Shown here: positions 23,711-39,509 of the stretch, piece by piece
How the letters are laid out: each line of letters starts with the position of its first letter
How positions within the stretch are numbered: position 1 is the stretch's first letter
Assembly (NCBI GenBank): GCA_031282625.1
Contig: JAITDI010000009.1
Coordinates: 988 to 64,987, forward strand
Length of the DNA: 64,000 bases
Source of the DNA: Candidatus Endomicrobiellum meruensis
GTDB taxonomy: Bacteria > Elusimicrobiota > Endomicrobiia > Endomicrobiales > Endomicrobiaceae
Direction: 5' to 3'
Program-made: the position numbers and the translations under genes
The notes under the pieces: model-generated
What the model saw: only the letters and a program-made list of their open reading frames with translations
The model's database searches: none
What the model was told of the DNA's origin: nothing

Positions 23711-23750
23711 AATTTGAGAAAATTGTTACATACTAAAGAAGGAGAAGTAT

Positions 23751-24752
23751 ATGGACATCAGAGAACACATTTTAGAATTAGCCAAGAAAGTCAAAGGTAA
23801 AGTAATTTTGCCGGAAAGTTTTGATACTAGAGTTTTAAAAGCAGCAGAAATGCTTACAAAAAACGGAGTTGCTTCGGTAGTATTGCCTAGTGATAATATT
23901 GAAGAAGTTAAAAAGATTGCTGCCAATGCAAGTATAGATTTAAGCGGAATAGAAATTATAAATATGGACCAATCTCTTTTGGACAATAGCAAAGTTAAAG
24001 AGTTTGTTGCTGCAAGAACTAAGAAAGGCATGACGGAACAAGATGCGTTAGCTTTGCTAAAGAAACCTTTATACTTCTCAATGATGTATTTAAAAAATGG
24101 CAAGTGTGACGCTTGCGTAGGCGGAGCGGTTTACGATACAGCTGACGTTTTAAGAGCAAGCATTCATGTTATAGGTACGGCTGAAGGCATAAAGATTATT
24201 TCTTCATATTTTCTTATGATACCTCCGTCAAATCATCCTATTATAAAAGAACCTGTTATGTTTACTGACTGTGGCGTAAATCCGGACCCTCAGGCTTTGG
24301 GGTTAAAAGACATAGCTGTTTCAACCGTAGCAAACTTCAAAAAGCTTTTCCCCGGCAAAACGGCTAATGTAGCTATGCTTTCGTTCTCAACTAAAGGAAG
24401 CGCCAACAATAAAGTTTTGGAAAAAGTTATAGAAGCAACAAAGCTTACAAAAGAACATTTTAAAGAGCAAAATGAAGTTAATGTTGATGGAGAGCTTCAG
24501 TTTGACGCTTCTGTAGTTCCAACTGTTGGAGAAAGAAAAGCTCCGGGCTCGGCTGTTGCAGGAAAAGCAAATATATTGGTATTTCCTGATTTAAATGCAG
24601 GAAATATCGGCTATAAAATTGCAGAAAGATTTGGCGGATTCCAAGCACTAGGACCAATTATACAAGGACTTTCTCTTCCAGTAAGCGACTTAAGCAGAGG
24701 TTCAAGTGCGGAAGATATATATTTAATAAGCGCAATAATGCTTTTAAAATAA
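23751..24752 (+). CDS. pta: phosphate acetyltransferase
   Basis: ILPESFDTRVLKAA N-terminus, FPDLNAGNIGYKIAER and GPIIQGLSLPVSDLSRG. Confidence 0.9.
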   Translation: MDIREHILELAKKVKGKVILPESFDTRVLKAAEMLTKNGVASVVLPSDNIEEVKKIAANASIDLSGIEIINMDQSLLDNSKVKEFVAARTKKGMTEQDALALLKKPLYFSMMYLKNGKCDACVGGAVYDTADVLRASIHVIGTAEGIKIISSYFLMIPPSNHPIIKEPVMFTDCGVNPDPQALGLKDIAVSTVANFKKLFPGKTANVAMLSFSTKGSANNKVLEKVIEATKLTKEHFKEQNEVNVDGELQFDASVVPTVGERKAPGSAVAGKANILVFPDLNAGNIGYKIAERFGGFQALGPIIQGLSLPVSDLSRGSSAEDIYLISAIMLLK

Positions 24753-24763
24753 GAAAAAGCAAA

Positions 24764-25552
24764 ATGGAAATCATAGATACGCATAATCATATATGGCCAG
24801 AGAAAGTTGTCTCTAAAGCCAAAGATTATCTTGAAAGTTTTACTAAACGTAAACTGATAACTTTGCCTACGGCAGACAACCTGCTTAAGGTCATGGATGA
24901 GGCAGGCATCTCAAAAAGTATCGTCTCCTCAGTTGCTTCTTATCCTCGTCAAGTTGTATCAATAAACAATTGGCTTTTCTCTATTAAGCAGAAAAGACTT
25001 ATCCCTTTTGCTTCAATACACCCTTTTTTTGATGGTTTTAAGGAAGAATTAAAAAGAATACAAGACAATACCTTTGGCATTAAATTGCATCCTGAAATTC
25101 AAAAATTTTATGTTGATGATGAAAGGGTATTTCCTCTCTACGAAGAGATTCAAAAACTGAAGCTAACTATTTTGCTGCATTGTGGAGCTGAGATAAGTTC
25201 CCAAGGGGAAATTCGTTCTACTCCTGAAAGAATTTTGAAAGTTATAGAGAAGTTCCCCGAACTTAAAATTATCGGCGCCCACATGGGCGGTTTTTTAATG
25301 TGGAAAAAAGTTTTAGAAAAGTTAGCTGGCAAAAATATATATCTTGATACCTCTGATAGTATTAGAATAATGAAAAAAGAATTGCTTGAACAATTCTTTG
25401 AAAAACACGGTTTTGACAAAATGATCTACGGATCGGACTTTCCAATTCAAGATCCAAAAGAAGAAATTGAATTTATTAAAACATTAAACATATCCGAAGA
25501 AAATAAACAAAAAATCTTATCTTGGAACATAAAAAATCTAATTAATCTTTAA
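24764..25552 (+). CDS. amidohydrolase-family (TIM-barrel metal-dependent) hydrolase
   Basis: N-terminal IIDTHNHIW metal motif and LLHCGAE. It is the parent copy of the fragment at 17004-17356. Confidence 0.8.
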   Translation: MEIIDTHNHIWPEKVVSKAKDYLESFTKRKLITLPTADNLLKVMDEAGISKSIVSSVASYPRQVVSINNWLFSIKQKRLIPFASIHPFFDGFKEELKRIQDNTFGIKLHPEIQKFYVDDERVFPLYEEIQKLKLTILLHCGAEISSQGEIRSTPERILKVIEKFPELKIIGAHMGGFLMWKKVLEKLAGKNIYLDTSDSIRIMKKELLEQFFEKHGFDKMIYGSDFPIQDPKEEIEFIKTLNISEENKQKILSWNIKNLINL

Positions 25553-27423: not shown

Positions 27424-28473
27424 TTAAAGTTTTTTAACCACTTTTTGTATTGTTGCAACTGCCAATTTAACAGCAGATTCTATATCTTTTATATTGAATA
27501 CAGACGAAGGAGCGTGAATATATCTTGTTGGAATACTCAATATCCCTGTAAGAATCCCTTCTCTATTTGTGTAAATTGCTGCTCCGTCTGTCATTCCGCC
27601 GTCAATAATGTCTATTTGATGTGCAATATTATTTTTTAGTGCAGCTTCTAACATAATTTTACGCACTTTATGAGGAACTATTGTTCCTCTTCCTGAAGCT
27701 TCCATCATTGTTATAGCAACGCCTTTGCCAAGTTTTAATGCTGAAACTTTTTCTTCTATTCCGGGCATGTCGCCAGCTATTGTAGTGTCTATTATAAGAG
27801 CAAAATCAGGATTTACTTTAAATGAAGAAGTTTTTCCACCTTTAAGACCTACCTCTTCTTGAGCTGTGGCGCAGGCGTAAATTTCTGCATTTAAATCTTT
27901 TATTTTGGAAAGAGACTCCATAACCTTAACCATAGCGTAGCAACTTATTCTGTTGTCTGCAGCTTTGCCATAAAAAAAGTTTTCATGCAAAATTCCAGCA
28001 TTAGGTTCAAATATTATTTGATCGCCGATATCCAAAACTTTTAATACTTCTTGTCTTGATGAAAGGCCAATGTCTATAAACATATCTTTGTGTTTAATGG
28101 GTTGTTTTGCTTCCTCTACAGTCATCAAATGAGGAGGCTTTGTTCCTATTATACCTTTTATATGCTCGCCTTTTTTATTTATAACTTCTACAAGTTTGCC
28201 AGGTAGAATGGAGTCGTTTATTCCTCCTACTTTGATAAAATATATATATCCTTTTTCATTTACATGTTTTACAACCATGCCGATTTCGTCCATGTGTGCG
28301 GCTATCTGTATTTTTTTCTTGCCGTTGCCTAATTTCCCTATAATGTTTCCAAAATTGTCCGTTTCAACGGAGCTGCACATTTTTGATAGAGCGTTGGTCA
28401 TTATTTTTGCAACATTTTCTTCATAGCCCGAGATTCCGTCAGACATTAGCAAATCTTTTAAAAGTTTTTCCAT
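27424..28473 (-). CDS. M42 family metallopeptidase (FrvX/YpdE-like aminopeptidase)
   Basis: IAAHMDEIGMVVKHV, ADNRISC and ATAQEEVGLKG motifs. Confidence 0.88.
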   Translation of the reverse strand: MEKLLKDLLMSDGISGYEENVAKIMTNALSKMCSSVETDNFGNIIGKLGNGKKKIQIAAHMDEIGMVVKHVNEKGYIYFIKVGGINDSILPGKLVEVINKKGEHIKGIIGTKPPHLMTVEEAKQPIKHKDMFIDIGLSSRQEVLKVLDIGDQIIFEPNAGILHENFFYGKAADNRISCYAMVKVMESLSKIKDLNAEIYACATAQEEVGLKGGKTSSFKVNPDFALIIDTTIAGDMPGIEEKVSALKLGKGVAITMMEASGRGTIVPHKVRKIMLEAALKNNIAHQIDIIDGGMTDGAAIYTNREGILTGILSIPTRYIHAPSSVFNIKDIESAVKLAVATIQKVVKKL

Positions 28474-29715
28474 TTATTTCTCCGAGATATTTTTTATCGC
28501 ATTTATTCTATCAAGAACAGGAGGGTGCGAGTATTCTAAAAATACTTTCAATTTATGAGGAGCAAGATTAGAAAGATTGTCCACTGAAAGTTTCTTTAAA
28601 GCGTTTATCATATCTTGAGGGTGTTTGTAAGTTGTCACAGCATAAGTGTCGGCTTCATACTCGTATTTCCTTGATAAACAGCTTGATATAGTTGACAACA
28701 CAAATGACATAGGCGTATATAAGAAAGCAAAAAATATCACGCCTGCATATATTGGCTGTGTGTCCATAAGAAAAGCTTTGTAGAGCCAAGGTTCTTTTAT
28801 AAAAATAGAAAGTATAAACAGCATAGTTCCCATGGAAACAAAAGAAAAAATCATCTGCTTTATTATATGTCCAAGTTTAAAATGACCCATTTCATGAGCC
28901 AAAACGCTTGTCAATTCTTCCACTGTGTGTTTTTGTATAAGCGTATCAAACAAAACTATTCTTCTTGACTTGCCAAAACCTGTAAAAAAAGCGTTTGACT
29001 TAGTTGAGCGCTTAGAATTGTCCATTTTAAACAAGCCCCTCATTTTAAAGTTTTCTTTTTTAGCGTATTCTTCAACAGACTTTTTAAGTTCGCCGTTTTC
29101 TAATGGGGTATATTTATTAAACAAAGGCATTATAACTATTGGATATATAAAAGTTACAAAAAGCTCAAAAGCTGTTATTGCAACAAAAGCGTACAACCAC
29201 GCATAATGCTCAATACTTGAAAATAGCCATACTATTACAGAAAACATTACGCCGTATAGTATTCCTTTTATAATGAAAGATTTTATAAAGTCTGTTATAA
29301 AGATTTTTCCGTTCATTTTGTTAAAACCAAATTTTTCCTCTATTACAAACGTTGAATAAGCAGAAAATGGCAAATCTACAATTTCATAAATCAAATATAA
29401 AATGCCCGCAAATATCAAGCCTGTCAAAACTGTTCCAGCACCAAAAGAAGAAGCCAAAGAATTTACATAGCTAAATCCGCCTGCAAGTATAAAAGTAATC
29501 TGTAAAACCAGTGAGAATGTAGAAGAAAAAATGGTAAATTTTGTATTGTCTTTAAGGTAACTTTGAGCTTTAGCATATTTTTCTTTATCAAAAAAATTTT
29601 CAAATTCCTGCGGGATAGTATTTGAAATATTTTTTAAATTTAGTAAGTCTGAGATGGTCTCAATAATATATACTGTAACTACAAAAGACAACACCAAATA
29701 AGTAAAATGGTTCAT
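28474..29715 (-). CDS. M48 family zinc metalloprotease (Ste24/HtpX-like), integral membrane
   Basis: Multiple TM helices and the HEMGHFKLGH zinc motif. Contiguous with the M42 gene. Confidence 0.88.
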   Translation of the reverse strand: MNHFTYLVLSFVVTVYIIETISDLLNLKNISNTIPQEFENFFDKEKYAKAQSYLKDNTKFTIFSSTFSLVLQITFILAGGFSYVNSLASSFGAGTVLTGLIFAGILYLIYEIVDLPFSAYSTFVIEEKFGFNKMNGKIFITDFIKSFIIKGILYGVMFSVIVWLFSSIEHYAWLYAFVAITAFELFVTFIYPIVIMPLFNKYTPLENGELKKSVEEYAKKENFKMRGLFKMDNSKRSTKSNAFFTGFGKSRRIVLFDTLIQKHTVEELTSVLAHEMGHFKLGHIIKQMIFSFVSMGTMLFILSIFIKEPWLYKAFLMDTQPIYAGVIFFAFLYTPMSFVLSTISSCLSRKYEYEADTYAVTTYKHPQDMINALKKLSVDNLSNLAPHKLKVFLEYSHPPVLDRINAIKNISEK

Positions 29716-29746
29716 TAGCTTTCTCCAGAAAAAAGTTGACTTAATT

Positions 29747-29775
29747 ATACTATTTTTACTTTAAAATGATATAAT
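29747..29775 (+). promoter_or_regulatory. candidate extended -10 promoter for the 30005 operon
   Basis: TGa-TATAAT at 29767-29775 with a weak -35. It would give a ~220-nt leader. Confidence 0.35.
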
Positions 29776-30004
29776 TCCAAGACAAAATTTGTTGATTCTA
29801 CGACTTTGGGACTTTGTCCTTTAGCGCAGAATCCATTAACTTTTCAATAAGGTGAGTATAACATAACCAAGTTACAGTTTAGAAACTACGCTCTTCGTGT
29901 TGGGTGTTCCCAATAGTTTTGAGAGAAAGAATTTGGACTAAGTCGTAGCTTTCCTCGTTTTTACAAATTTTTATAAACTCTCTCTAAAAATGTAAGAGGA
30001 ATAT

Positions 30005-31030
30005 ATGAATAAATTAGTTGTTACTTTTTACAATGTTGGTCATGGAAATTGTACTCATATAATAACTCCAACCAATCAGCATATATTAGTTGATATTGGC
30101 AGCTTGGAGGAATATAGTATAAGTGAATTTCTCAGGACCATATCAGGACAGATAGATATGTTGCACCTGACGCGTCCCCACAAAGACCATTTGTATGATT
30201 TAGCGAGATTGAAAGAAGTTGGATTGTCGCCAAGAATTTTGAGTATATATAGACGTGCTTTCCCTGTTAAACATTTATATAATCAACGTCTCTATAATAG
30301 TAGTAATAACCAAAGACAAATAACAAAATGGCAATTACAACAAAGTCTAGATAAAAAAATACAGCAAACAGCAAATGATTTTTACAATATTTACACAATG
30401 CCTGTTTCATGGAATTCTAATCCTCTCAATCCAGAATACAACAGCGGGGTTACGATAAAAATAGATTTTCCTCCTAACAAATATATAAATCCAGATGACC
30501 AAAATTCATACTCTTCGCTTATATCTATAGAATATTATGATGTTAAAATATTGCTCACAGGAGATAATAACAGAGATATGCTAAAAGAAAGGATATTAGA
30601 CGATACGTCGGATCTTTATAGTCTATCACAATATAATTTATTTGAAAATTCTTTGCGGGCGAGAAATTGGGATGTAAACTTGGATCACTATCGGTTAGGG
30701 GTAAAAAAGAATTCATTTACAGATTTCATAATGAATCACCATGTCCTTCTAGCGCCGCATCATGGCAGGACTACAGATTTCTGCAAAGAATTTTTTGATT
30801 TAGTCAATCCAAATCTTACAATAGTATCTGATAAGAGCATAGAATATGATAGTCAGGATACAACAAGTGATGTTTATAACAATAATAACAAAAAAGGACT
30901 GGTGGTGAATAAAATGGAAAGAAAAGTTTTAACAACTCGCAAAGATGGAACAATTAAATTAATGATATATGAAAATGAAGAATACGAAATCAACACTGGA
31001 ATAAAAGGCTCTTTTTATGGTTATGACTAA
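30005..31030 (+). CDS. standalone MBL-fold hydrolase of the ComEC C-terminal-domain type
   Basis: FYNVGHGNCTHI...ILVDIGS, LHLTRPHKDH (HxHxDH motif with the first His replaced by Arg), SSLISIEYYDVKILLTGDNN, LLAPHHGR, and VLTTRKDGTIKLMI. Confidence 0.75.
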   Translation: MNKLVVTFYNVGHGNCTHIITPTNQHILVDIGSLEEYSISEFLRTISGQIDMLHLTRPHKDHLYDLARLKEVGLSPRILSIYRRAFPVKHLYNQRLYNSSNNQRQITKWQLQQSLDKKIQQTANDFYNIYTMPVSWNSNPLNPEYNSGVTIKIDFPPNKYINPDDQNSYSSLISIEYYDVKILLTGDNNRDMLKERILDDTSDLYSLSQYNLFENSLRARNWDVNLDHYRLGVKKNSFTDFIMNHHVLLAPHHGRTTDFCKEFFDLVNPNLTIVSDKSIEYDSQDTTSDVYNNNNKKGLVVNKMERKVLTTRKDGTIKLMIYENEEYEINTGIKGSFYGYD

Positions 31031-31089
31031 TTAATCAAAGCTGTAATGCATAAACGGTGTTTTTAGTTAACATCAAAAAGGTGGATACA

Positions 31090-31578
31090 ATGGCAGGTGA
31101 TACATCGTTCAAGATACCATTCTACGAGGTAGTTAATAGATTTGTTATAGGAGTAGTTTTTGTAATATTCTTTTTACTCGTGTTCTATGGACAAAGTATT
31201 GATTTTATTCAACCATATCATGTCTTGCTATCTACAGCCTCTGATTTTGTTTTGTTAAGTTCCTTAATGGTAATTGTAATAATTTACATGACAGGATTGA
31301 TAATCAACAGATTTTCTTCTGTATTTATAGAAGAAGTCTTAATTAAACTTGGATTAATTCAAGTTTACGAAAAAAACTACAAAGATTTTAATAAGTGTCG
31401 CAAAAAAGATCTATTTCTTTATACTCTTTCAAGAGAATATGCTCTCTCAAGAGGAAATTTTGCATTATGGATTTTACTGACATTTTTATGTTTATTTTCT
31501 GGACACTGGTTACCTACATTGACTAAGTTGCATTATAGCAATTGTCTTTTTTTTATCTATGAAAAAGCATTCAGGTAA
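31090..31578 (+). CDS. three-TM membrane protein, unknown function
   Basis: ATG at 31090 behind aaggtgga. The alternative is a GTG at 31057. TM segments are FVIGVVFVIFFLLVFY, FVLLSSLMVIVIIYMTGLII and FALWILLTFLCLFSGHW. The 3-prime end may be affected by a T8 tract (see findings). Confidence 0.6.
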   Translation: MAGDTSFKIPFYEVVNRFVIGVVFVIFFLLVFYGQSIDFIQPYHVLLSTASDFVLLSSLMVIVIIYMTGLIINRFSSVFIEEVLIKLGLIQVYEKNYKDFNKCRKKDLFLYTLSREYALSRGNFALWILLTFLCLFSGHWLPTLTKLHYSNCLFFIYEKAFR

Positions 31579-31667
31579 GATAGATAAGATTATTAAAGAT
31601 TTTAAATCTCAACAAGAATGTAGCAGCGAAAAGGTAAAAACAATTTCTAAATAAGTTGAGGAATAAA

Positions 31668-32300
31668 ATGCATGAAATAGAATATGGTATAAAATTGTTG
31701 GCAGATAAATATTCAGATGCCCTTGCTCAACAAATAAAGTTAAGGACAGATGAAATGCGAAATGACGACAAATCTCACTATTTAATATATGAGGTCTTAG
31801 GGATAGATAGAAAAGAAGGCGAATTAATAGATTTATATCAAAACAAAGGTCGTTTCCTATACAAATATGCGGGTTCTTTTTTAGAAGAAGCCACAATTTT
31901 GTGTTTTAAAAATAAATTTTCATATGCGCGGGAAAAAGTTAGAATAAAAAACAGTATTACGCAAAGACCTAAGACAATTGAGATTGATTGTTTGATTAAT
32001 AATAATGCTTTTGAGATTAAATGGAGAGATGCGACGACAGATGGATACCACATAACAAAAGAACATACACGCATCAAAGTTATTCAGAAATATGGATATA
32101 AACCAATAAGACTAATGTTTTATGAACCTAATAGGGGGCAAGCTATTAAAGTTCAAGAAACACTGAAGACAATGTATCTTGGAGTAAACGGAAAGTATTA
32201 TTCTGGAAATACAGCTTGGGAATATGTTAAAGAATATACGAATATTGATTTAAAACAGATTCTGAACAATATCGTCAAGAGTAAACATAGAGGAGGATAG
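31668..32300 (+). CDS. putative type II restriction endonuclease (PD-(D/E)xK)
   Basis: ATG at 31668, 5 nt after the gagga RBS. Motif KTIEIDCLINNNAFEIKWRD (D...ExK). It ends 3 nt before the methyltransferase gene. Confidence 0.6.
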   Translation: MHEIEYGIKLLADKYSDALAQQIKLRTDEMRNDDKSHYLIYEVLGIDRKEGELIDLYQNKGRFLYKYAGSFLEEATILCFKNKFSYAREKVRIKNSITQRPKTIEIDCLINNNAFEIKWRDATTDGYHITKEHTRIKVIQKYGYKPIRLMFYEPNRGQAIKVQETLKTMYLGVNGKYYSGNTAWEYVKEYTNIDLKQILNNIVKSKHRGG

Positions 32301-32303
32301 AAA

Positions 32304-33524
32304 ATGACTCTATTATTAGGCGATTGTAGAGATAAATTAAAGAAAATAAGCAGTAATTCGGTAGATATAATTTATTTAGATCCACCGTTTTATACCCAAA
32401 AGATACATGTTTTAAAAAATAGGAACAGTTCTAAGAAGTACAGTTTCAATGACATTTGGGAAAATTTAGAAGACTATTTAGCTTTTATAAAACAGGTTTT
32501 GTTTCAATTGCGGCGTGTTCTAAAAGAAACTGGGAGCATATTTCTTCACTGTGATAGGTATGCCTGTCATCACCTGCGAATACTATTGGATGAAGCCTTT
32601 GGAATAGATAATTTCCAGAGCGAAATAATCTGGAGTTACAAAAGATGGTCAAACTCAAAAAAAGGCTTGCTCAATAGTCATCAAAATATTCTTTTTTATA
32701 GCAAAACCAAAAATTTTAAATTCAATGGGATATATACTGAATACTCGCCAACAACTAACGTAGATCAAATCTTACAAGAAAGAGAAAGAGATTCTGATGG
32801 TAAATCAATTTATAGAAAAGATAGAATAGGCAACGCAGTTTTACGTAATAAAAACGGCGTTCCTTTATCTGATGTTTGGGAAATCCCTCTTTTGAATCCT
32901 AAAGCAAAGGAGCGTTATGGCTATCCCACTCAAAAACCAGTAATGTTGCTTGAACAGATAATCAAAATATCTTCTGATAAAAATGATGTTATATTGGATC
33001 CATTTTGTGGTAGTGGAACTACTTTGGTTGCCGCAAAAATGAATAATAGAAAATTTATTGGTATAGATATTTCTAAAGATGCTATTTGTTTAAGTAAACG
33101 GCGACTAAACGAGTTAATAAAAACAGAATCGGCTCTATTAGAGAAGGGTGTATATAGTTATATTAACAAAACAGAAAAAGAATTGAGTATACTCAAGATT
33201 ATGGATGCTATTCCTGTCCAGAGAAATGCTGGCGTAGATGGATTTCTGAAAAAACAATATGGTGACAAACCAATTCCAATCAAAATACAAAAAAATACCG
33301 AAACATTAAGTGAAGCAAAAGTAAAATTATTAAAAGTTTGTAAAAACAAAAAGTTTAATTGCTGTATTTTGGTAAGGACTAATAATTTTGAAAGTCCCTT
33401 TCTATTTGAACAAGAAGAGAAGTGCCATATTTTAGTCGTTGATTCCTACGAGTTGACAATTAGAAATTGGTTTAAGCTAAATATTAAAAAACACAATGTT
33501 ATAGAACAGTTGGAGGTCATGTGA
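32304..33524 (+). CDS. DNA methyltransferase, beta-class N6/N4 family (DPPF type) with extra C-terminal Mrr-like domain
   Basis: IIYLDPPFYTQK (motif IV), GSIFLHCD, EIIWSYKRW, YPTQKPVMLLEQII and DPFCGSGTT (motif I). About 130 extra C-terminal residues contain NAGVDGFLK....IPIKIQKN. Confidence 0.9.
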   Translation: MTLLLGDCRDKLKKISSNSVDIIYLDPPFYTQKIHVLKNRNSSKKYSFNDIWENLEDYLAFIKQVLFQLRRVLKETGSIFLHCDRYACHHLRILLDEAFGIDNFQSEIIWSYKRWSNSKKGLLNSHQNILFYSKTKNFKFNGIYTEYSPTTNVDQILQERERDSDGKSIYRKDRIGNAVLRNKNGVPLSDVWEIPLLNPKAKERYGYPTQKPVMLLEQIIKISSDKNDVILDPFCGSGTTLVAAKMNNRKFIGIDISKDAICLSKRRLNELIKTESALLEKGVYSYINKTEKELSILKIMDAIPVQRNAGVDGFLKKQYGDKPIPIKIQKNTETLSEAKVKLLKVCKNKKFNCCILVRTNNFESPFLFEQEEKCHILVVDSYELTIRNWFKLNIKKHNVIEQLEVM

Positions 33525-33934
33525 CTTATAAAGCATTATTATTTCATCATATAGGCATTCCTATTGAAAAATCAAAAATAGGCAAAAATGCTAAGTATTC
33601 GCCACTCTATAAAATGTACACGCAAGGCGGCGTTAATAATTTGGGTCTTCATATACAGTACCATGCTTTTGACTCGGGATCCAGTCTTGACGAAAAAATA
33701 AGAAGTAAAGTTCATGTCGCATTTAAAACGGACAATAATATAGAAGAAATTATTAAAGGGCATGAAATAATAATGCCGCTTTACGAACCTTTTAAAGGAT
33801 ACAAATGCACGATGATAATTGTAAACGATATGCCTATAGAAATAATAGAAACAACTTTGTCTGAAGAAGAAGTTTGGAATGACGAAGAAATTTTAAATAA
33901 TGGCGTTTTATATGGAAAAAATGAAAAAGAATAA
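33521..33934 (+). CDS. VOC/glyoxalase-fold family protein (tentative)
   Basis: 137-aa ORF whose GTG start overlaps the MTase stop (GTGA). It shows the FHHIGIPI and HVAFKTDN beta-alpha-beta-like motifs, and its 3-prime end overlaps the tmk start. Confidence 0.5.
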   Translation: MTYKALLFHHIGIPIEKSKIGKNAKYSPLYKMYTQGGVNNLGLHIQYHAFDSGSSLDEKIRSKVHVAFKTDNNIEEIIKGHEIIMPLYEPFKGYKCTMIIVNDMPIEIIETTLSEEEVWNDEEILNNGVLYGKNEKE

Positions 33935-34562
33935 AGGTATTTTTATAACTATTGAAGGTGGCGAAGGCTCTGGCAAAACTACTCAGTCGCGTTTGTTAAA
34001 AGAGTATTTAGAGAAACTTGGACGTAAAGTTTTGCTCACTCGGGAACCGGGTGGAACTCTTTTTGCCGAATCTATACGCAAGATTTTGTTGAGTCCAGAT
34101 TCGCGACTTGTTCCTCTAAGCGAGCTATTTTTGTATGAGGCGGCAAGATCTCAGCATATGGAAGAATTTATTATTCCTGCATTAAAAGCAGGAAAAGTTG
34201 TTATATGCGATAGATTTACAGACGCTACGGTCGCTTATCAGGGATATGGTAGAAAGCTGGATATAAAACTCATAAATCGGCTTAATAAAGAGGCGACCTT
34301 TGGCATATCGCCAAATTTAACTATATATCTTGATATTGATTCTAAGAAAGGCTTAAACAAAGCAAAATTTTTAGATAAAGAGTCTTACGGGTCAGATGGT
34401 GACAGAATAGAAAGAGAATCTGTTCTATTCCATAACAATGTTAGAAAAGGATATTTAAATCAGGCAAAAAAATGTCATAAAAGAATAAAGGTTATAAAGA
34501 CTCAAAGTACGCCATTAAAAACGCACATGCTTATAAGAAAATATTTGGATGCGGTATTATAA
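33900..34562 (+). CDS. tmk: thymidylate kinase
   Basis: FITIEGGEGSGKTT P-loop, TREPGGT and DRFTDATVAYQG. The start could also be 33912 or 33921. Confidence 0.93.
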   Translation: MAFYMEKMKKNKGIFITIEGGEGSGKTTQSRLLKEYLEKLGRKVLLTREPGGTLFAESIRKILLSPDSRLVPLSELFLYEAARSQHMEEFIIPALKAGKVVICDRFTDATVAYQGYGRKLDIKLINRLNKEATFGISPNLTIYLDIDSKKGLNKAKFLDKESYGSDGDRIERESVLFHNNVRKGYLNQAKKCHKRIKVIKTQSTPLKTHMLIRKYLDAVL

Positions 34563-35524
34563 TGTTTGAAAATATACTTGGTCAACAAAAAGTTAAAGAA
34601 ATACTTTCAAGTCAAATAAAAAGTGGGAAAATAGCCCATGCTTATATATTCATGGGTCAAGATGGCGTAGGTAAGCGCTTGATGGCATCGGAATTAGCTA
34701 AAATTCTTAATTGTACAACAAGTAATTTTCTCAAAGGTGAAGCTGGCTCTTGTGGGGTATGCTCTTCGTGTGACAAGATAACTAAAAATATACACCCAGA
34801 CGTGCATTTTGTAGATTTTGTAAAGCAAGCCCAGCTTGAATGTGGCGATTTAGATAAACAAAAAATAATCAAAATAGAAACTATACGTTATATGCAAAAA
34901 GAAGTATCCACAAAGGTACGTGAAGGCAAGTGGAAAGTTTTTGTAATAGAGCCTGCCGAGAAAATGAATGCAGCGGCAGCTAATTCTTTATTGAAAACTC
35001 TTGAAGAGCCTCCAGAAAATACAATTATAATTTTGCTTGCAAGACATAAAGAAACAATACCTAAGACGATAATTTCCAGATCTCAGACCTTATTTTTTCA
35101 ACCTCTAAGTGCAGATATAGTGTCAACTTGGCTTATGTTAAATTGTTCGCTAGATTCAAACAGAGCAAAAGAAATAGCCGAATTAAGCGAAGGCTCTCTT
35201 GAAACCGCAAAAAAATTAATAGATGAGAAAGAAGCCAAAAGTCTCTCTTTGTGGCGTAAATTAAGAACTCAAAAACTTTGTATTTCTGATATTCTTGAAT
35301 TGTCAAAAAATACAGCAAAATTTGGAGCTCTAGAATGCGTGGACGCAATAACGGCAGAAGCAAAAAAAGAATTTAGAATTTATCCTAGAGAAACCGCTCC
35401 TGCTTTAGATATGTTAAATAATTCAAGAGCATTGCTTTTAAAAAATGTAAATGCTCAAACAGTCTTAGATAACTTATTTTTTGATTTGCAGGGTTTAAAA
35501 ATTTGTGACTTTTTTAATTTTTAG
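34562..35524 (+). CDS. holB: DNA polymerase III subunit delta-prime
   Basis: HAYIFMGQDGVGKRLMA, zinc-module cysteines (CGVCSSCDKI), LKTLEEPP and SRSQ. Confidence 0.88.
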   Translation: MFENILGQQKVKEILSSQIKSGKIAHAYIFMGQDGVGKRLMASELAKILNCTTSNFLKGEAGSCGVCSSCDKITKNIHPDVHFVDFVKQAQLECGDLDKQKIIKIETIRYMQKEVSTKVREGKWKVFVIEPAEKMNAAAANSLLKTLEEPPENTIIILLARHKETIPKTIISRSQTLFFQPLSADIVSTWLMLNCSLDSNRAKEIAELSEGSLETAKKLIDEKEAKSLSLWRKLRTQKLCISDILELSKNTAKFGALECVDAITAEAKKEFRIYPRETAPALDMLNNSRALLLKNVNAQTVLDNLFFDLQGLKICDFFNF

Positions 35525-35631
35525 AAGCGTTTATTGTGTCAAGATATCTTTGCGTAAATTTGTTCCCTATATTCATCAGTTGCTTGCTTAAGGATTCAAA
35601 AATCTAATATCTTCTGAACGCGGACAAAGGT

Positions 35632-35660
35632 TTGACTATTCGGTAAAAATTTGGTACAAA
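35632..35660 (+). promoter_or_regulatory. candidate promoter of rpmE
   Basis: TTGACT, 17-nt spacer, then TGg-TACAAA (extended -10). Confidence 0.4.
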
Positions 35661-35703
35661 TAAAAATGTGTTGGGCGGTAACAAATAAAAGGAGACGTTA
35701 AAA

Positions 35704-36039
35704 ATGAAAGAAGGAATACACCCAAAATATGAAGAAAGCGTAGTTTCTTGCGCTTGTGGTTATACTTTTAAGACTCGTTCAACAAAACCTTCCATTAAAT
35801 TAGAAATATGCTCAAACTGTCATCCTTTCTTTACAGGCAAGCAGAAGCTTATAGATACAGCTGGAAGAGTTGAAAAGTTTCAGAAACGTTTTGCTAAAAC
35901 TGAAGGCAAAACTTTGGTAAGAAAGAAAGCCGAAAGAAAAGTTGTAAAACCAAGAAAAACTACTGGAAAAATACTTACCACTTCTCCAAAAAAGGCAAAA
36001 TCCGCTCCAAAAAAAGATAAAGAAGCTAAGGGTAAGTAA
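35704..36039 (+). CDS. rpmE: 50S ribosomal protein L31 with Lys-rich C-terminal extension
   Basis: MKEGIHPKY...[26 protein letters not shown], followed by a ~45-aa K-rich tail. RBS aaggaga. Confidence 0.93.
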
Positions 36040-36112
36040 TTTTATAAGATAATTTTATGGCAGAATCTTGTCTAGAAAGAGGTTCTGTCATATTTTTTGT
36101 GGACAACAAATT

Positions 36113-37183
36113 ATGTTTTTAGAAAAATTAAAAGCGTTGAGCAATCAATTTAAAGAAGTTGAACAGCAGCTAGGAGATTCTTCTATTGTTTCTAATCAGG
36201 AAAAATATAGAGAATTGACTAAGCAGTACTCTTATTTGCGTCCTATTGCTGAGAAATATACTCAATATTGCAAACTTTTAAATGATATAAAAGATGCTGG
36301 AGAGCTAAAGAAATCTGACGATTCCGAAATACGAGAAATGGCTTTTGCAGAATATGATGATTTAATAAGTAAAAAAGAAAAGTTTGAGTCTGAAATAAAA
36401 GTTTTACTTATACCTCCAGATCCTAATAAAAATAAAAATATTATCGTTGAAATCCGTGCTGGAACCGGTGGAGACGAGGCTGCTTTGTTTGTAGGCGATT
36501 TGTACAGAATGTATACAAGGTTTGCCGATAGAAACGGTTGGAAACATGAAGTTATAGATTCTAACCCCACAGGTCTTGGCGGTTATAAAGAAATTGTATT
36601 TGAAATAAATGGCAATAAAGTGTGGAGTTACTTTAAATTTGAAAGAGGTGCTCATAGAGTTCAAAGAGTTCCAGCTACAGAAGTATCGGGAAGAGTGCAT
36701 ACGTCAGCTGTTACTGTGGCTGTTCTTCCTGAAGCTGAAGAAGTGGACTGTGAAGTAAAGATGGAAGATTTGAGAATAGATACGTATAGAGCTTCAGGTG
36801 CGGGCGGTCAGCACGTAAATAAAACTGATTCGGCTATAAGAATCACGCATTTCCCTACAGGACTTGTAGTTGCCTGTCAAGACGAAAGAAGCCAAATAAA
36901 AAACAGAGCCAAAGCTTTTAAAGTTTTAAGAGCTAAACTTTACGAACAAAAAGTTTTGGAACAGGAAAAGCAGCTTTCGAGTGAACGCAAACAGCAGGTA
37001 GGATCTGGCGACAGATCTGAAAAAATTAGAACATATAATTTTCCTCAGAATAGAATAACTGACCATAGAATTGGCTATAGTGTCTACAACATTACAGAAG
37101 TTATGGACGGAGATCTGTCTGAACTTGTAAACAAATTGATAGAAGCTGATGTAGAATCTAAACTCAAGGAAAACAATATTTAA
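36113..37183 (+). CDS. prfA: peptide chain release factor 1
   Basis: PAT-type decoding region (RVQRVPATE) and SGAGGQHVNKTDSAIRITH. ATG at 36113 (MFLEKLKAL) preferred over the track TTG start. Confidence 0.95.
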   Translation: MFLEKLKALSNQFKEVEQQLGDSSIVSNQEKYRELTKQYSYLRPIAEKYTQYCKLLNDIKDAGELKKSDDSEIREMAFAEYDDLISKKEKFESEIKVLLIPPDPNKNKNIIVEIRAGTGGDEAALFVGDLYRMYTRFADRNGWKHEVIDSNPTGLGGYKEIVFEINGNKVWSYFKFERGAHRVQRVPATEVSGRVHTSAVTVAVLPEAEEVDCEVKMEDLRIDTYRASGAGGQHVNKTDSAIRITHFPTGLVVACQDERSQIKNRAKAFKVLRAKLYEQKVLEQEKQLSSERKQQVGSGDRSEKIRTYNFPQNRITDHRIGYSVYNITEVMDGDLSELVNKLIEADVESKLKENNI

Positions 37184-38035
37184 ATGTTAGACGGCGAAAA
37201 CGTTTATACATTATTAAAAACAGCTACAACGTTTTTAAAATCTAAAGGTTTGTCTGAATCTAAATCTGATGCAGAAGTTTTATTGAGTTTTGTATTGCAA
37301 ACAAAGCGTTCCAAACTGCCTTTATTAAGAAGTCAAAAACCAACCGATAAACAAATGTTGCAATATGAAAATTATGTGTTAAAACGTTCAAATCGCGAAC
37401 CATTGGCATATATAACAGGGTTTGCCAATTTTATGGGTTTTGAATTTAAAGTAGATAAAGATGTTCTTATACCAAGACCAGAAACGGAAATTTTGGTTGA
37501 AGTTGCGTTAAAGATTGCCAAAGAAAAGAATAAAAAATCTGTTTTAGATTTGTGTACAGGTTCAGGCTGTATAGCTATAAGTTTGGCTAAACTTGGAGTT
37601 TTTGAAGATATTGTAGCTTCAGACATAAGCGTTAATGCTTTGGCGATTGCAAAAGAAAATGTACTAATTAACAATGCTTCCAATATCAAATTTATTGAAA
37701 GCGATATTTTTGAAAAAATACCAGATTGCAAATTTGATATGATAGTTTCCAATCCTCCATATGTTACAGAATATGAATACGCTGATTTGGAGACTGAACT
37801 TAAGTTTGAGCCGAAAAAGGCTCTAACAGCGCAAGATGATGGTTTGTTTTTTTATAAAGAGATAGCGACAAATATAACCAAATATTTAACCGTCAATGGG
37901 TATATTATTCTTGAATTAAATTCAAATAAAGCAGAAGATATACGACAAATATTTTCAGATAACAAATACGCAAATATTGAAATAATAAATGACTATTGTG
38001 GACTTCCTAGAGTATTAAAAGCTGTAAAATCTTGA
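37184..38035 (+). CDS. prmC: release factor glutamine N5-methyltransferase
   Basis: LDLCTGSGCIAISLA SAM motif and the IVSNPPYV catalytic motif. It lies immediately after prfA. Confidence 0.92.
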   Translation: MLDGENVYTLLKTATTFLKSKGLSESKSDAEVLLSFVLQTKRSKLPLLRSQKPTDKQMLQYENYVLKRSNREPLAYITGFANFMGFEFKVDKDVLIPRPETEILVEVALKIAKEKNKKSVLDLCTGSGCIAISLAKLGVFEDIVASDISVNALAIAKENVLINNASNIKFIESDIFEKIPDCKFDMIVSNPPYVTEYEYADLETELKFEPKKALTAQDDGLFFYKEIATNITKYLTVNGYIILELNSNKAEDIRQIFSDNKYANIEIINDYCGLPRVLKAVKS

Positions 38036-38151
38036 GATTACAATCCTCCTGCAGGAATGCACGAAGTCGCAGAAAATGTACTTTCTTTAAGATTGCTAAT
38101 ACAAGCTTTATTTTGTATAGATATTTTTATATATAAATTATTGGAGTTAAA

Positions 38152-39408
38152 ATGGATAAAATAATAATACACGGCGGCAAAAAATTGAAAGGGGAAGTTA
38201 TTATTTCTGGATCAAAGAATTCTACTTTGCCTATTTTGTTTGCAACTTTACTTAGTGACGAGCCTTCAATAATAAAAAATGTTCCTTCTCTTGCAGATAT
38301 AGACACGACTGTGGAATTTTTAAATTTTATAGGTAAAAAAACTGTTAAAAAAGGGAATACTATAAGAACTTATTCTTCTTGTAAATATAAACATATAGCT
38401 CCTTACGATTTGGTCAGAAAAATGCGGGCAAGCGTTTTAATAATGGGACCGTTGCTTGCAAGACTTAACCGTGTTGACGTTTCTTTGCCAGGAGGCTGTA
38501 CTATAGGGGCAAGACCTATAGACATGCACTTAGATGCTTTTAGAAAACTTGGAGCCGAAATTTCTATTGAAGGCGGATATATTAAAACCTTATCAAAAGA
38601 TGGGCTTAAAGGTGCTGTTATAGATTTAAAGTTTCCAAGCGTTGGAGCCACTGAAAATATTTTGCTTAGCGCAGTTTTAGCTAAAGGTAAAACTACCATA
38701 ATTAATGTAGCTAAAGAACCTGAAATAGAAGATTTGGTTGATGTTTTAAATAAGATGGGGGCTAAAATAAGTGGTGCGGGTACAGAAAAAATAATTATTG
38801 ATGGTGTTGACAGTTTACGAGGATTTACACATGAAGTAATTCCCGATAGAATAGAGGCTGCGACATATATGATAGCTGCAGCTATTACAAAGGGTGACGT
38901 TGTTCTTAAAAATGTTACTCCAAAGCATATTGAAGTGGTAAGTAATAAATTGAAAAAAAGCGGGTTATGTGTTAAGGAAAATAAAACGAGTATTAGAGTT
39001 AAATGGGTTAGAAATTTAAAGCCTCAAAATATTAAAACAGAAGTCTATCCAGGATTTCCGACCGATGCTCAAGCTCAGTGGGTGGCTTTGATGTGTCTTT
39101 TAAAAGGACATTCAAAAGTAGAAGAAACCATATTTGAAAACAGATTTATGTATGTTGCGGAATTACAAAGGTTTGGAGCCAATATAATGGTAAACTCTAA
39201 GGTAGCCAATATAACTGGAGTCGATAAATTCTCAGGAGCCCCCGTGATGGTTTCAGATTTAAGAGCAGGAGCGGCTCTTGTATTGGCTGGTCTTGCGGCA
39301 GAAGGCAAGACTGTAGTATCAAGAGTTTATCATCTTGATAGGGGTTATGAACTGCTTGAAAAGAAACTTAAAAAACTCGGAGCAGATATAAAAAGAGTGC
39401 ATTCCTAA
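38152..39408 (+). CDS. murA: UDP-N-acetylglucosamine 1-carboxyvinyltransferase
   Basis: ISGSKNSTLPILFA, and LPGGCTIGARPIDMHL containing the catalytic Cys. Confidence 0.95.
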   Translation: MDKIIIHGGKKLKGEVIISGSKNSTLPILFATLLSDEPSIIKNVPSLADIDTTVEFLNFIGKKTVKKGNTIRTYSSCKYKHIAPYDLVRKMRASVLIMGPLLARLNRVDVSLPGGCTIGARPIDMHLDAFRKLGAEISIEGGYIKTLSKDGLKGAVIDLKFPSVGATENILLSAVLAKGKTTIINVAKEPEIEDLVDVLNKMGAKISGAGTEKIIIDGVDSLRGFTHEVIPDRIEAATYMIAAAITKGDVVLKNVTPKHIEVVSNKLKKSGLCVKENKTSIRVKWVRNLKPQNIKTEVYPGFPTDAQAQWVALMCLLKGHSKVEETIFENRFMYVAELQRFGANIMVNSKVANITGVDKFSGAPVMVSDLRAGAALVLAGLAAEGKTVVSRVYHLDRGYELLEKKLKKLGADIKRVHS

Positions 39409-39480
39409 AAAAACATATAAAATTTTCTTAATTTGAATGAAATCAGTATTAATATTAACAATAATAGAAACTGCTAGCTC

Positions 39481-39509
39481 TTGAAAACAATTATAGGTTT
39501 TGATAAAAT
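39481..39509 (+). promoter_or_regulatory. candidate promoter of the rpsB-tsf operon
   Basis: TTGAAA, 17-nt spacer, then TGa-TAAAAT. This implies a ~165-nt leader. Confidence 0.4.

What the first reader, a model, noticed from the sequence alone, without database searches (positions are those of the whole stretch)
30005..33934. Candidate composite or novel defence island: ComEC-like MBL hydrolase, 3-TM protein, PD-ExK nuclease, MTase with Mrr-like tail and VOC protein
Five same-strand genes are packed with tiny gaps or overlaps. There are 3 nt between the nuclease and the MTase, a GTGA overlap between the MTase and the VOC gene, and the VOC gene overlaps tmk. They sit between a protease gene and the tmk-holB housekeeping block. 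The nuclease/MTase pair explains a classical type II R-M system, but the first two genes are unexplained. One is a standalone MBL-fold protein of the ComEC C-terminal type. Its metal motif is altered to LTRPHKDH, with the first His of HxHxDH replaced by Arg. The other is a small protein with three TM helices. MBL-fold ComEC-type domains are nucleases. A nuclease or hydrolase paired with a small membrane protein is a recurring logic in abortive-infection systems. From memory, a two-gene hydrolase plus 3-TM defence pair has been catalogued from phage-satellite hotspots. I cannot tell from here whether this pair is homologous to it. The physical coupling of such a pair to an R-M module whose MTase carries an extra nuclease-like domain is not an arrangement I know as described.
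Basis: partly seen in the sequence, partly recalled or inferred. Interest (0 to 1): 0.75.

Follow-up and report, generated by a model that had tools for sequence, protein, structure and literature searches.

The report
Eroded candidate defence pair beside R-M
A 3.8-kb insert in an Endomicrobium-like genome holds an ordinary ApaLI-type restriction-modification system next to a nuclease-plus-membrane-protein pair that is already listed as an untested phage-defence candidate (PADLOC PDC-M48), and this copy of the pair looks broken.

Summary
The five ORFs, their spacing and the LTRPHKDH motif are real. The island is four genes, not five.

- **Island limits.** An island-free relative joins the M48 protease gene directly to ORF5-tmk-holB. 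The insert is therefore about 29722-33509, and the "VOC" gene is native.
- **MBL + membrane pair.** It matches PADLOC's untested candidate PDC-M48 (B 4.9e-31, A 4.2e-11). That candidate was found because it sits embedded in type I R-M operons.
- **Pair elsewhere.** The two genes are adjacent in every relative with sequence on both sides, across four phyla. Neighbours include type I and type II R-M, Mrr, a STAND NTPase, a Schlafen-like protein, an E1-E2-JAB fusion and integrases.
- **MBL fold.** The closest solved structure is the ComEC nuclease domain.
- **R-M module.** The REase is ApaLI-family. The MTase's REase-like C-terminal tail is typical of its family.
- **Erosion here.** Arg replaces the first metal-binding His, which is His in all 116 other homologues where the motif is found. 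The membrane gene is frameshifted and loses its last helix and conserved C-terminus. dN/dS is 0.4-0.5 against about 0.1 for flanking genes. Related strains carry a stop codon or an IS insertion in the pair.

Verdict: a composite island of known kinds, holding a degenerate copy of a catalogued but uncharacterised candidate. Low to moderate interest.

The parts
28474..29715 (-). M48 (Ste24/HtpX-type) metalloprotease gene. Native left flank of the insertion hotspot.
   Evidence: ORF. Relatives carry Peptidase_M48_N and Peptidase_M48 here. Homology to the island-free contig L092 ends at window 29721.
29722..33509 (.). Inserted island of about 3.8 kb (four genes) at a strain-variable hotspot.
   Evidence: L092 matches window 28490-29721 and 33510-35487 with only 68 bp between them. 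L094 carries a 198-aa SPASM-like gene at the same place.
30005..31030 (+). Standalone ComEC-type MBL-fold phosphodiesterase (PDC-M48B-like), 341 aa. It has two lineage-specific insertions.
   Evidence: PADLOC PDC-M48B 4.9e-31 and 1.6e-20. At least 176 homologues, median 282 aa. AF2 model pLDDT 84.7. Foldseek top hit is the ComEC BLACT domain 9ic4, E = 2.4e-13.
30173..30175 (+). Codon 57, CGT = Arg, replacing the first His of the HxHxDH metal-binding motif.
   Evidence: All 116 other homologues in which the motif is found have His. Only the window protein has Arg. The related strain L097 keeps THTHKDH.
31090..31578 (+). Membrane partner gene (PDC-M48A-like) as the open frame reads: 162 aa from ATG 31090. 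The GTG at 31057 gives the 173-aa ORF listed. The last 17-18 residues are out of frame.
   Evidence: PADLOC PDC-M48A 4.2e-11 and 7.6e-10. Alignment A3 shows homologues starting at the position of window residue 19, and conserved KIPFYN, IYEIGLIINRxGS and LSREYALSR motifs.
31523..31654 (+). Out-of-frame (+1) remnant encoding the conserved C-terminus of the membrane partner (LSCIIAIVFFLSMKKHSGKIDKIIKDF...). The ancestral stop is at 31652-31654, 1 nt before the REase start.
   Evidence: Translations. Similarity to homologues' ...LFFFSMRKFDSKIQNILKDY. The reconstructed protein covers PDC-M48A profile positions 7-161 of 164, against 7-117 for the ORF as read. A fourth hydrophobic segment is restored.
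31656..32300 (+). ApaLI-family type II restriction endonuclease, 214 aa from TTG (alternative ATG at 31668).
   Evidence: Pfam RE_ApaLI 3.7e-91, profile positions 3-188 of 189. PADLOC REase_II 4.4e-84.
32304..33524 (+). Beta-class N6/N4 amino-DNA methyltransferase (DPPF motif), 406 aa. Cognate MTase of the R-M.
   Evidence: Pfam N6_N4_Mtase 1.2e-57. PADLOC MTase_II PDLC03339 5.4e-174 over 5-393 of 399. PDB relatives are CcrM, M.MboIIA and M.RsrI.
33084..33521 (+). C-terminal domain of the MTase. It has an alpha-beta-beta-beta-alpha-beta core with conserved D...Q (GIDG...IKIQK), so it is REase-like or Mrr-like. It is typical of the family.
   Evidence: 167 representative proteins carry it. Invariant D52 and Q69. 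Four of 31 homologues give weak Mrr_cat hits. AF2 model pLDDT 89.9. Foldseek gives only non-significant hits, all to REase-like folds.
33521..33934 (+). ORF5: a native small conserved protein, possibly VOC/glyoxalase-fold. It is the first gene of the ORF5-tmk-holB block and not part of the island.
   Evidence: Homologues of 74-98% identity lie directly upstream of tmk in L092, L094 and L096. dN/dS is 0.10-0.11, like tmk and holB. Profile against PDB: Glyoxalase-I, E = 0.042.
33900..35524 (+). tmk and holB. Native right flank.
   Evidence: ORFs. Relatives carry Thymidylate_kin and DNA_pol3_delta2 here.

Best explanation
Window 29.72-33.51 kb is a 3.8-kb insertion at a strain-variable hotspot. 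The hotspot lies between an M48 protease gene and the conserved ORF5-tmk-holB block of an Endomicrobium-like (Elusimicrobiota) genome. The insert carries two modules that are each of a known kind.

**Module 1** is a two-gene cassette: a cytoplasmic ComEC-type metallo-beta-lactamase-fold phosphodiesterase and a polytopic membrane protein. It belongs to PADLOC's untested phage defence candidate PDC-M48.

**Module 2** is an ApaLI-family type II restriction-modification system. Its methyltransferase carries the C-terminal REase-like domain that is usual for that family.

The fifth gene is native. In this genome module 1 is eroded:
- the first metal ligand is changed from His to Arg;
- the MBL has lineage-specific insertions;
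- a frameshift removes the partner's last helix and conserved C-terminus;
- purifying selection is relaxed.

The working part is therefore most likely the R-M alone, acting by methylation of self DNA and cleavage of unmethylated incoming DNA. Its site is presumably GTGCAC-like, which is inferred and not shown.

For intact relatives of module 1 the most likely mechanism is also inferred. The MBL would be a two-metal (Mn/Zn) DNase like the ComEC domain. The membrane partner would hold or regulate it at the inner face of the membrane. It would degrade invading DNA, or cellular DNA once triggered.
For: **Insertion and limits.** Island-free L092 joins the protease gene to ORF5 with a 68-bp gap. L094 has a different gene at the same place. 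L096 is 99% identical from 31574 onward.

**PDC-M48 identity.** PADLOC hits to both genes. Payne et al. list cassette CAS_00157, 63 occurrences, "Assign as candidate PDC-M48". PDCs are untested candidates found embedded in BREX, DISARM or type I R-M.

**Conserved pairing.** The partner is immediately adjacent in L001-L007, L011, L082, L083, L087 and L090. The order is reversed in Bacteroidota L008, L009 and L012.

**Defence contexts.**
- Embedded in type I R-M: L001, L002, L082, L087.
- Type I R-M directly upstream: L009.
- AlwI R-M plus Mrr nearby: L083, L006.
- Mrr_cat-NB-ARC-TPR: L012.
- Schlafen AlbA_2: L003.
- E2-ThiF-JAB: L010.
- RelA_SpoT: L008.
- Integrases and a Rep protein: L090.

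**ComEC-type fold.** Foldseek 9ic4, E = 2.4e-13. The ComEC domain is a Mn-dependent two-metal DNase (PMC12455585).

**Erosion.**
- R57 is unique among the 117 homologues in which the motif is found.
- The partner gene is frameshifted.
- dN/dS is 0.39-0.51 for the pair, against 0.09-0.16 for flanking genes.
- L097 has an in-frame stop in the MBL gene.
- L096 has an IS200/IS605 end and a 64-bp deletion in the partner gene.
- Rapid decay of defence systems is documented for Endomicrobium endosymbionts (PMC5174739).

**R-M.**
Against: - The MBL ORF is still open over 341 aa and folds confidently (pLDDT 84.7). The other metal ligands (H59, D61, H62, D187, H252/H253) are kept. No experiment shows that R57 kills activity.
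- The frameshift and the Arg codon rest on a single assembled contig, so an assembly or sequencing error is possible.
- The dN/dS comparison uses different strain pairs at different divergence (dS 0.2-0.3 against 0.8-1.8), which inflates omega for the closer pair.
- The ancestral stop of the partner gene lies 1 nt before the REase start. The pair also recurs next to R-M in about 7 of 15 distinct loci. A functional link with R-M therefore cannot be excluded.
- No member of PDC-M48 has been shown to defend against phage. A full-text search for "PDC-M48" found no paper.
Confidence: 0.7

Rival explanations
1. The PDC-M48-like pair here still works as an independent second defence system beside the R-M. 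Arg57 would be tolerated or would retune metal binding. The frameshift would be an assembly error, or the truncated partner would suffice.
For: The MBL ORF is open and folds confidently. All other invariant family residues are kept. The frameshift rests on one contig only. dN/dS of 0.4-0.5 is still below 1.
Against: His at this position is found in all 116 other homologues with the motif. ComEC domains that lack metal ligands are regarded as inactive (PMC12455585). The conserved C-terminus of the partner is clearly out of frame. Two related strains carry independent disabling lesions.
Confidence: 0.18
2. The four (or five) genes form one integrated, novel defence system. The MBL/membrane pair would be functionally coupled to the R-M, for example as a guard that fires when restriction is inhibited, in the way PrrC works with EcoprrI.
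For: Genes are tightly packed. The ancestral partner stop at 31652-31654 abuts the REase start. The pair recurs embedded in or next to R-M of several types.
Against: The partner R-M type varies: type I, AlwI type IIS, ApaLI type IIP. About half of the loci have no R-M nearby but hold other defence genes or mobile-element genes. ORF5 is native. In related strains the pair decays, and in L096 this happens while the MTase stays intact. Nothing in the proteins suggests an interface with the R-M.
Confidence: 0.07
3. The MBL is not a DNase but a phosphodiesterase for a small molecule, such as a cyclic-nucleotide signal (Apyc1-like) or a phosphocholine ester (Pce-like). It would work with the membrane protein in signalling or envelope modification.
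For: Many family members have weak precomputed PF23023 Anti-Pycsar_Apyc1 hits. A 451-455-aa MBL protein lies next to the pair in L090 and L004, and the L004 copy carries an AGS_C nucleotide-sensor domain. The second-best structural match is the Pce/CbpE phosphorylcholine esterase, E = 1.3e-08.
Against: The best structural and sequence matches are ComEC nuclease domains. The Apyc1 hits are flagged weak, and no Apyc1 structure appears among the top 50 PDB matches. MBL nuclease effectors are common in defence: other MBL proteins at these loci also hit the LmuA, RTasMBL and Avs1a models.
Confidence: 0.1
4. The pair has nothing to do with defence. It would be a mobile-element cargo or a DNA-uptake or turnover function that merely hitch-hikes in variable regions.
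For: No PDC-M48 member has been tested. ComEC relatives act in DNA uptake.
Against: There is no OB-fold or competence channel domain (TIGR00361 scores 14.5 bits against a cut-off of 190). Neighbours are overwhelmingly defence genes in unrelated phyla. No competence genes are nearby.
Confidence: 0.1

Closest known systems
PADLOC phage defence candidate PDC-M48 (Payne et al. 2024, bioRxiv 10.1101/2024.01.29.577857; cassette CAS_00157)
   Same: Both proteins hit the PDC-M48B and PDC-M48A HMMs. The genes are adjacent on the same strand and lie next to an R-M system. Relatives are embedded in type I R-M, as in the discovery set.
   Different: This copy sits beside a type II (ApaLI-like) R-M, not inside a type I operon. 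Its MBL is 60 aa longer through two insertions, and Arg replaces the first metal-binding His. Its membrane partner is frameshifted. The family itself has no demonstrated function.
ComEC/Rec2 C-terminal beta-lactamase-like nuclease domain (e.g. Moorella glycerini, PDB 9ic4)
   Same: It is the best structural match (E = 2.4e-13, TM-score 0.73 on the target). The N-terminal DVGxG-type motif, HxHxDH and a later His-containing motif are shared. Association with the membrane is likely.
   Different: The window protein is standalone, with no OB fold and no competence channel. It has no signal peptide, so it is presumably cytoplasmic. The membrane component is a separate small protein unrelated to the competence domain. 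Sequence identity is about 17%.
ApaLI type II restriction-modification system
   Same: The REase matches Pfam RE_ApaLI over the full profile (304 bits). The MTase matches one PADLOC type II MTase model end to end. The REase and MTase genes lie 3 nt apart.
   Different: Recognition site and methylated base were not determined here. No controller (C) protein gene was seen.
Rousset et al. 2022 HAD-like hydrolase + transmembrane protein system from P4 satellite hotspots
   Same: The logic is the same: a two-gene system of a hydrolase plus a small membrane protein.
   Different: The hydrolase there is HAD-like, not MBL-fold (PMC9122126). The PADLOC scan gave no hits for either protein other than the PDC-M48 models. 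The resemblance is by analogy only.
PrrC/EcoprrI (effector embedded in a type I R-M and guarded by it)
   Same: In both cases a non-R-M gene is embedded within R-M operons, as seen here for relatives of the pair.
   Different: There is no ABC-ATPase or anticodon-nuclease domain. The pair also occurs without any R-M. No evidence of regulation by the R-M exists.

Membership tests
PADLOC PDC-M48 (candidate system) | Protein matching a PDC-M48B HMM (MBL-fold) | tested here: met
   PDLC04675 4.9e-31 and PDLC04674 1.6e-20.
PADLOC PDC-M48 (candidate system) | Protein matching a PDC-M48A HMM (small membrane protein) | tested here: met
   PDLC04671 4.2e-11 and PDLC04670 7.6e-10. After frameshift correction the match covers profile positions 7-161 of 164.
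PADLOC PDC-M48 (candidate system) | The two genes are adjacent on one strand | tested here: met
   26-nt gap to the GTG start, or 59 nt to the ATG at 31090. The same arrangement holds in 12 or more other loci.
PADLOC PDC-M48 (candidate system) | Both genes intact, with the family's invariant residues | tested here: not met
   R57 replaces the His found in all 116 other homologues with the motif. The partner gene is frameshifted near 31521-31525.
PADLOC PDC-M48 (candidate system) | Anti-phage activity | not testable with these tools
   PDCs are explicitly untested candidates. No paper mentions PDC-M48.
ComEC/Rec2 competence protein | Three-domain architecture: OB fold, competence transmembrane channel, MBL domain | tested here: not met
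   TIGR00361 scores 14.5 bits against a cut-off of 190 and matches only 32 residues. The protein is a 341-aa MBL domain only.
ComEC/Rec2 competence protein | MBL domain of ComEC type (fold and motifs) | tested here: met
   Foldseek 9ic4, E = 2.4e-13. phmmer against PDB finds ComEC chains only.
Type II R-M, ApaLI family | REase of the RE_ApaLI family | tested here: met
   PF09499 3.7e-91, profile 3-188 of 189.
Type II R-M, ApaLI family | Adjacent DNA methyltransferase with catalytic (DPPF) and SAM-binding motifs | tested here: met
   PF01555 1.2e-57. PDLC03339 5.4e-174 over the full length. The gap to the REase is 3 nt.
Type II R-M, ApaLI family | Recognition of GTGCAC and matching methylation | not testable with these tools
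   This needs methylome or cleavage data.
Rst hydrolase + 3-TM system (Rousset 2022) | HAD-like hydrolase partner | tested here: not met
   The hydrolase here is MBL-fold. The published system uses a HAD-like hydrolase.
Mrr_cat / PD-(D/E)xK nuclease domain (MTase tail) | Significant match to Mrr_cat or a solved REase-fold structure, with the catalytic D...(D/E/Q)xK | tested here: inconclusive
   The window tail has no Pfam hit, and 4 of 31 homologues hit Mrr_cat weakly, best 0.019. The model has an alpha-beta-beta-beta-alpha-beta core. The best Foldseek hits are REase-like folds but at E of 0.025 or worse. D52 and Q69 are invariant, while the residue two positions after Q69, where Mrr has its catalytic Lys, varies.
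VOC / glyoxalase superfamily (ORF5) | Paired beta-alpha-beta-beta-beta modules with His/Glu metal ligands, and a significant profile match | tested here: inconclusive
   No Pfam or NCBIfam hit. Profile against PDB: Glyoxalase-I 3hdp at E = 0.042 and 2qh0 at 0.082. Invariant FHHIG, H48, H65 and E107 fit the pattern.

The most novel reading that the evidence does not exclude
The PDC-M48 family is a real anti-phage system. In it a ComEC-type DNase works at the membrane with its small polytopic partner and cooperates functionally with R-M systems of several types, for example as a backup that fires when restriction fails. The window copy, despite Arg57, would retain such activity next to a type II R-M.
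Probability: 0.08. Interest if true: 0.65.

Novelty: new member of a known kind. Interest (0 to 1): 0.28.

Why it matters
As found, it matters little. An ApaLI-type R-M and a degenerate copy of a catalogued candidate add one more example of strain-variable, decaying defence content in Endomicrobium-like symbionts, a pattern already described.

The useful by-products are these:
- An independent neighbourhood survey, across four phyla, shows that the PDC-M48 pair is strictly co-localised and lives in defence islands.
- The MBL component is structurally a ComEC-type nuclease domain.
- There are variants with extra MBL paralogues, and one with an AGS_C sensor domain.

Together these make PDC-M48 a reasonable target for experimental validation. 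That work should use an intact homologue, not this locus.

Tried and rejected
- **Rfam gathering scan** of the whole window: no RNA families, so no taxon marker or regulatory RNA.
- **Promoter and terminator scan** of 29600-34100: counts equal the shuffled expectation, so it says nothing about operon structure.
- **Word-indexed homology search with the MTase tail alone**: only 3 hits. It was replaced by the exhaustive representative search.
- **Sequence searches of PDB** with the REase, ORF5 and the MTase tail: nothing significant.
- **Exact-pattern scan of metagenome contigs** for the 3' end of the partner gene, to find strains with an intact frame: no matches.
- **Foldseek against viral structures** for the MBL: two unnamed hits only, which does not help the Apyc1 rival.
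- **"One five-gene system"**: rejected because ORF5 is native.
- **Homology to the Rousset hydrolase + 3-TM system**: rejected because that hydrolase is HAD-like.
- **"It is a ComEC"**: rejected because the OB and channel domains are absent.

Full report
**1. Observation**

The five + strand ORFs exist at the stated coordinates: 30005-31030 (341 aa), 31057-31578 (173 aa), 31656-32300 (214 aa), 32304-33524 (406 aa) and 33521-33934 (137 aa). The spacing is as described. An M48 protease gene lies on the minus strand upstream (28474-29715). tmk (33900-34562) and holB (34562-35524) lie downstream. The motif LTRPHKDH is present, and codon 57 is CGT. None of these is a chance ORF, because each has clear homologues.

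**2. What the genes are**

- **ORF3** matches Pfam RE_ApaLI over the whole profile (3.7e-91).
- **ORF4** is a beta-class N6/N4 amino-methyltransferase (PF01555, 1.2e-57). It matches a single PADLOC type II MTase model end to end (PDLC03339, positions 5-393 of 399, 5.4e-174). Its solved relatives are CcrM, M.MboIIA and M.RsrI. ORF3 and ORF4 form an ordinary ApaLI-family type II R-M.
- **ORF1 and ORF2** hit PADLOC PDC-M48B (4.9e-31) and PDC-M48A (4.2e-11) and no other defence model. PDCs are 145 untested "phage defence candidates" that Payne et al. derived from genes embedded in BREX, DISARM and type I R-M operons. Their supplementary file 8 lists the two-family cassette CAS_00157, with 63 occurrences, as "Assign as candidate PDC-M48". 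A full-text search finds no paper that mentions PDC-M48.

**3. The MBL protein**

It belongs to a large family of standalone proteins of about 280 aa (at least 176 hits, median length 282 aa). The family motifs are DVGHGSCTHI, THPH[EK]DH, GDN, LLAPHHGR and SDK (alignment A1). An AlphaFold model built on A1 is confident (pLDDT 84.7).

The best solved match is the ComEC beta-lactamase-like nuclease domain of Moorella glycerini (9ic4, E = 2.4e-13). Next is the Pce phosphorylcholine esterase. A sequence search of PDB finds only ComEC chains. That ComEC domain is a Mn-dependent two-metal endo- and exonuclease (PMC12455585). The window protein is not a ComEC: TIGR00361 scores 14.5 bits against a cut-off of 190, and there is no OB fold or channel domain.

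**4. Do the two genes travel together?**

Yes. In every close relative with flanking sequence, the partner of about 160-175 aa is immediately downstream of the MBL gene. This holds for L001-L007, L011, L082, L083, L087 and L090. In a Bacteroidota subfamily (L008, L009, L012) the order is reversed. The taxa include Elusimicrobiales, Prevotellaceae, Flavobacteriia, Acutalibacteraceae, Cytobacillus and Alphaproteobacteria.

The contexts are as follows:

| Context | Loci |
|---|---|
| Embedded in a type I R-M operon | L001, L002, L082, L087 |
| Directly after type I hsdMS-hsdR | L009 |
| 1.6 kb from an AlwI R-M plus Mrr | L083, L006 |
| Mrr_cat-NB-ARC-TPR STAND protein | L012 |
| Schlafen/AlbA_2 protein | L003 |
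| E2-ThiF-JAB fusion | L010 |
| RelA_SpoT protein | L008 |
| Integrase/Rep element | L090 |
| Extra MBL paralogues | L003, L004, L005, L029 |
| 451-455-aa MBL protein, with an AGS_C domain in the L004 copy | L004, L090 |

No competence or metabolic context was seen. The association with R-M is, however, the known basis of the candidate and not a new arrangement. The R-M type varies, and roughly half of the distinct loci have no R-M nearby. This fits co-residence in defence islands better than an obligate partnership.

**5. Limits of the island**

ORF5 has homologues of 74-98% identity in Endomicrobium-labelled and termite-type metagenome contigs.

- In L092 the order is M48 protease (-), ORF5, tmk, holB. 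blastn matches window 28490-29721 and 33510-35487 with only 68 bp between them.
- In L094 the same gap holds a 198-aa SPASM-like gene.
- L096 is 99% identical to window 31574-41830.

The insert is therefore about 29722-33509 and has four genes. ORF5 is the first gene of a native ORF5-tmk-holB block. Its dN/dS of 0.10-0.11 matches its neighbours. The GTGA overlap with the MTase is a by-product of insertion immediately upstream of ORF5. ORF5 has no Pfam or NCBIfam hit. A profile of 18 homologues finds Glyoxalase-I as the best PDB match at E = 0.042, so "VOC" is plausible but unproven. Its Desulforamulus homologue sits in an unrelated context.

**6. State of the PDC-M48 copy**

- **Metal ligand.** Among the 120 best homologues, all 116 others in which the motif is found have His at the first position of HxHxDH. 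Only the window protein has Arg. The related strain L097 keeps THTHKDH.
- **Insertions.** The window MBL has two lineage-specific insertions. At 341 aa it is the longest standalone member among these 120.
- **Frameshift in the partner.** In frame +1, 31523-31654 encodes LSCIIAIVFFLSMKKHSGKIDKIIKDF... This aligns with the conserved ...LFFFSMRKFDSKIQNILKDY of homologues. The open frame instead ends in 17-18 unrelated residues. The reconstructed protein regains a fourth hydrophobic segment. It covers PDC-M48A profile positions 7-161 of 164, against 7-117 before. The ancestral stop (31652-31654) lies 1 nt before the REase start codon.
- **Relaxed selection.** Against L097, dN/dS is 0.39-0.44 for the MBL and 0.51 for the partner. 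Flanking native genes give 0.09-0.16 against L094 or L092. The strain pairs differ in divergence, so this is only indicative.
- **Lesions in related strains.** L097 has an in-frame stop that splits the MBL gene into 104 and 278 aa. In L096 the end of an IS200/IS605-type element, with its hairpin, abuts a 36-bp remnant of the partner gene (window 31478-31513), and 31514-31577 is deleted. L096 also has a +1 T after window 31694, at codon 13 of the REase, while its MTase is intact.

This matches the published picture of rapid, strain-specific decay of defence systems in Endomicrobium endosymbionts (PMC5174739). ComEC domains that lack metal ligands are regarded as inactive (PMC12455585). The window sequence comes from one contig, so an assembly error at the frameshift cannot be excluded.

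**7. The MTase tail**

Residues 261-406 form a domain found in 167 representative proteins, mostly fragments of the same MTase family. D52 and Q69 are invariant (GIDG...IKIQK), and several other positions are nearly so. Four of 31 homologues give weak Mrr_cat hits (best 0.019). The AlphaFold model (pLDDT 89.9) has an alpha-beta-beta-beta-alpha-beta core. Foldseek finds nothing significant. The best weak hits (the RPB5 subunit, which by my own knowledge has an REase-like N-terminal domain, and Bax1, DdmD and BamHI, E = 0.025-0.08) all have restriction-endonuclease-like folds. The tail is therefore probably an REase-like domain. It is family-typical, and the residue where Mrr has its catalytic Lys is not conserved. 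It adds no novelty to this locus.

**8. The remembered "hydrolase + 3-TM" system**

Rousset et al. describe a HAD-like hydrolase with a transmembrane protein from the P4 hotspot (PMC9122126). That is a different fold from MBL, so the resemblance is one of logic only.

**9. Mechanism**

Shown: gene identities, conserved pairing, defence-island residence, ComEC-type fold, the island limits and the lesions.

Inferred:
- The R-M is the only module likely to work here, through self-methylation and cleavage of unmodified DNA.
- In intact relatives the MBL would be a two-metal DNase effector, tethered or gated by the membrane partner.

Rivals are given in the Rival explanations section with what would refute each. 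They are a still-active pair, an integrated R-M-guard system, a small-molecule phosphodiesterase, and a non-defence function.

**10. Verdict**

This is a composite island of known kinds: a new member of the ApaLI R-M family, plus a degenerate member of a catalogued but uncharacterised candidate family. Interest is low to moderate. PDC-M48 as a family remains worth testing, but with intact homologues and not with this copy.

Noticed in passing
L096:1-420 (window 31478-31700): In a strain 99% identical to the window, the end of an IS200/IS605-type element (a Y1 transposase C-terminus plus an ACGGGCGTAAGCCCGT hairpin) abuts a 36-bp remnant of the membrane-partner gene. Window 31514-31577 is deleted. 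The REase has a +1 T after window 31694 (codon 13), while the MTase is intact.
   Followed up: partly
L097:397-1605 (window 30005-31030): A strain 78-87% identical has the MBL gene split by an in-frame stop inside the first lineage-specific insertion. Its second insertion is even longer. These loop insertions look like expanding low-complexity segments.
   Followed up: partly
L094:4179-5224 against window 27424-28473: The M42 peptidase gene, intact in the window (349 aa), is split into three fragments (142, 74 and 79 aa) in relative L094. This suggests ongoing pseudogenisation in the lineage. L094 also has window 22112-25552 inverted and placed beside the holB region.
   Followed up: no
window 33521-33934 (ORF5) and homologues P0121-P0155: A small family of about 130 aa with no Pfam model and with invariant FHHIG, H48, H65, MPLYEPF and E107. 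It is 62% identical between this Elusimicrobiota genome and Desulforamulus ruminis (Bacillota), where it sits in an unrelated context. It may be an unclassified VOC-fold enzyme.
   Followed up: partly
L090:5617-6972, L004:7951-9318, L004:5326-6516, L005:7092-7985, L003:849-1817: Some PDC-M48 loci carry one or two further MBL paralogues. One is a 451-455-aa MBL protein that, in the L004 copy, carries an AGS_C nucleotide-sensor domain. This hints at a larger three-gene variant that may sense a nucleotide signal.
   Followed up: partly
L008, L009, L012 (Bacteroidota): A divergent subfamily (27-29% identity) has the reverse gene order, membrane protein then MBL. It sits next to a RelA_SpoT protein, a type I R-M and an Mrr_cat-NB-ARC-TPR STAND protein respectively.
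   Followed up: partly
window 1-64000: No Rfam family reaches its gathering score anywhere in the 64-kb window, so no tRNA, rRNA or riboswitch was detected.
   Followed up: no
window 33510-33524: Homology to the island-free relative L092 resumes at 33510, 11 nt upstream of the ORF5 start. The last few codons of the MTase therefore run into native sequence, and the MTase C-terminus may have been remodelled at the insertion junction.
   Followed up: no
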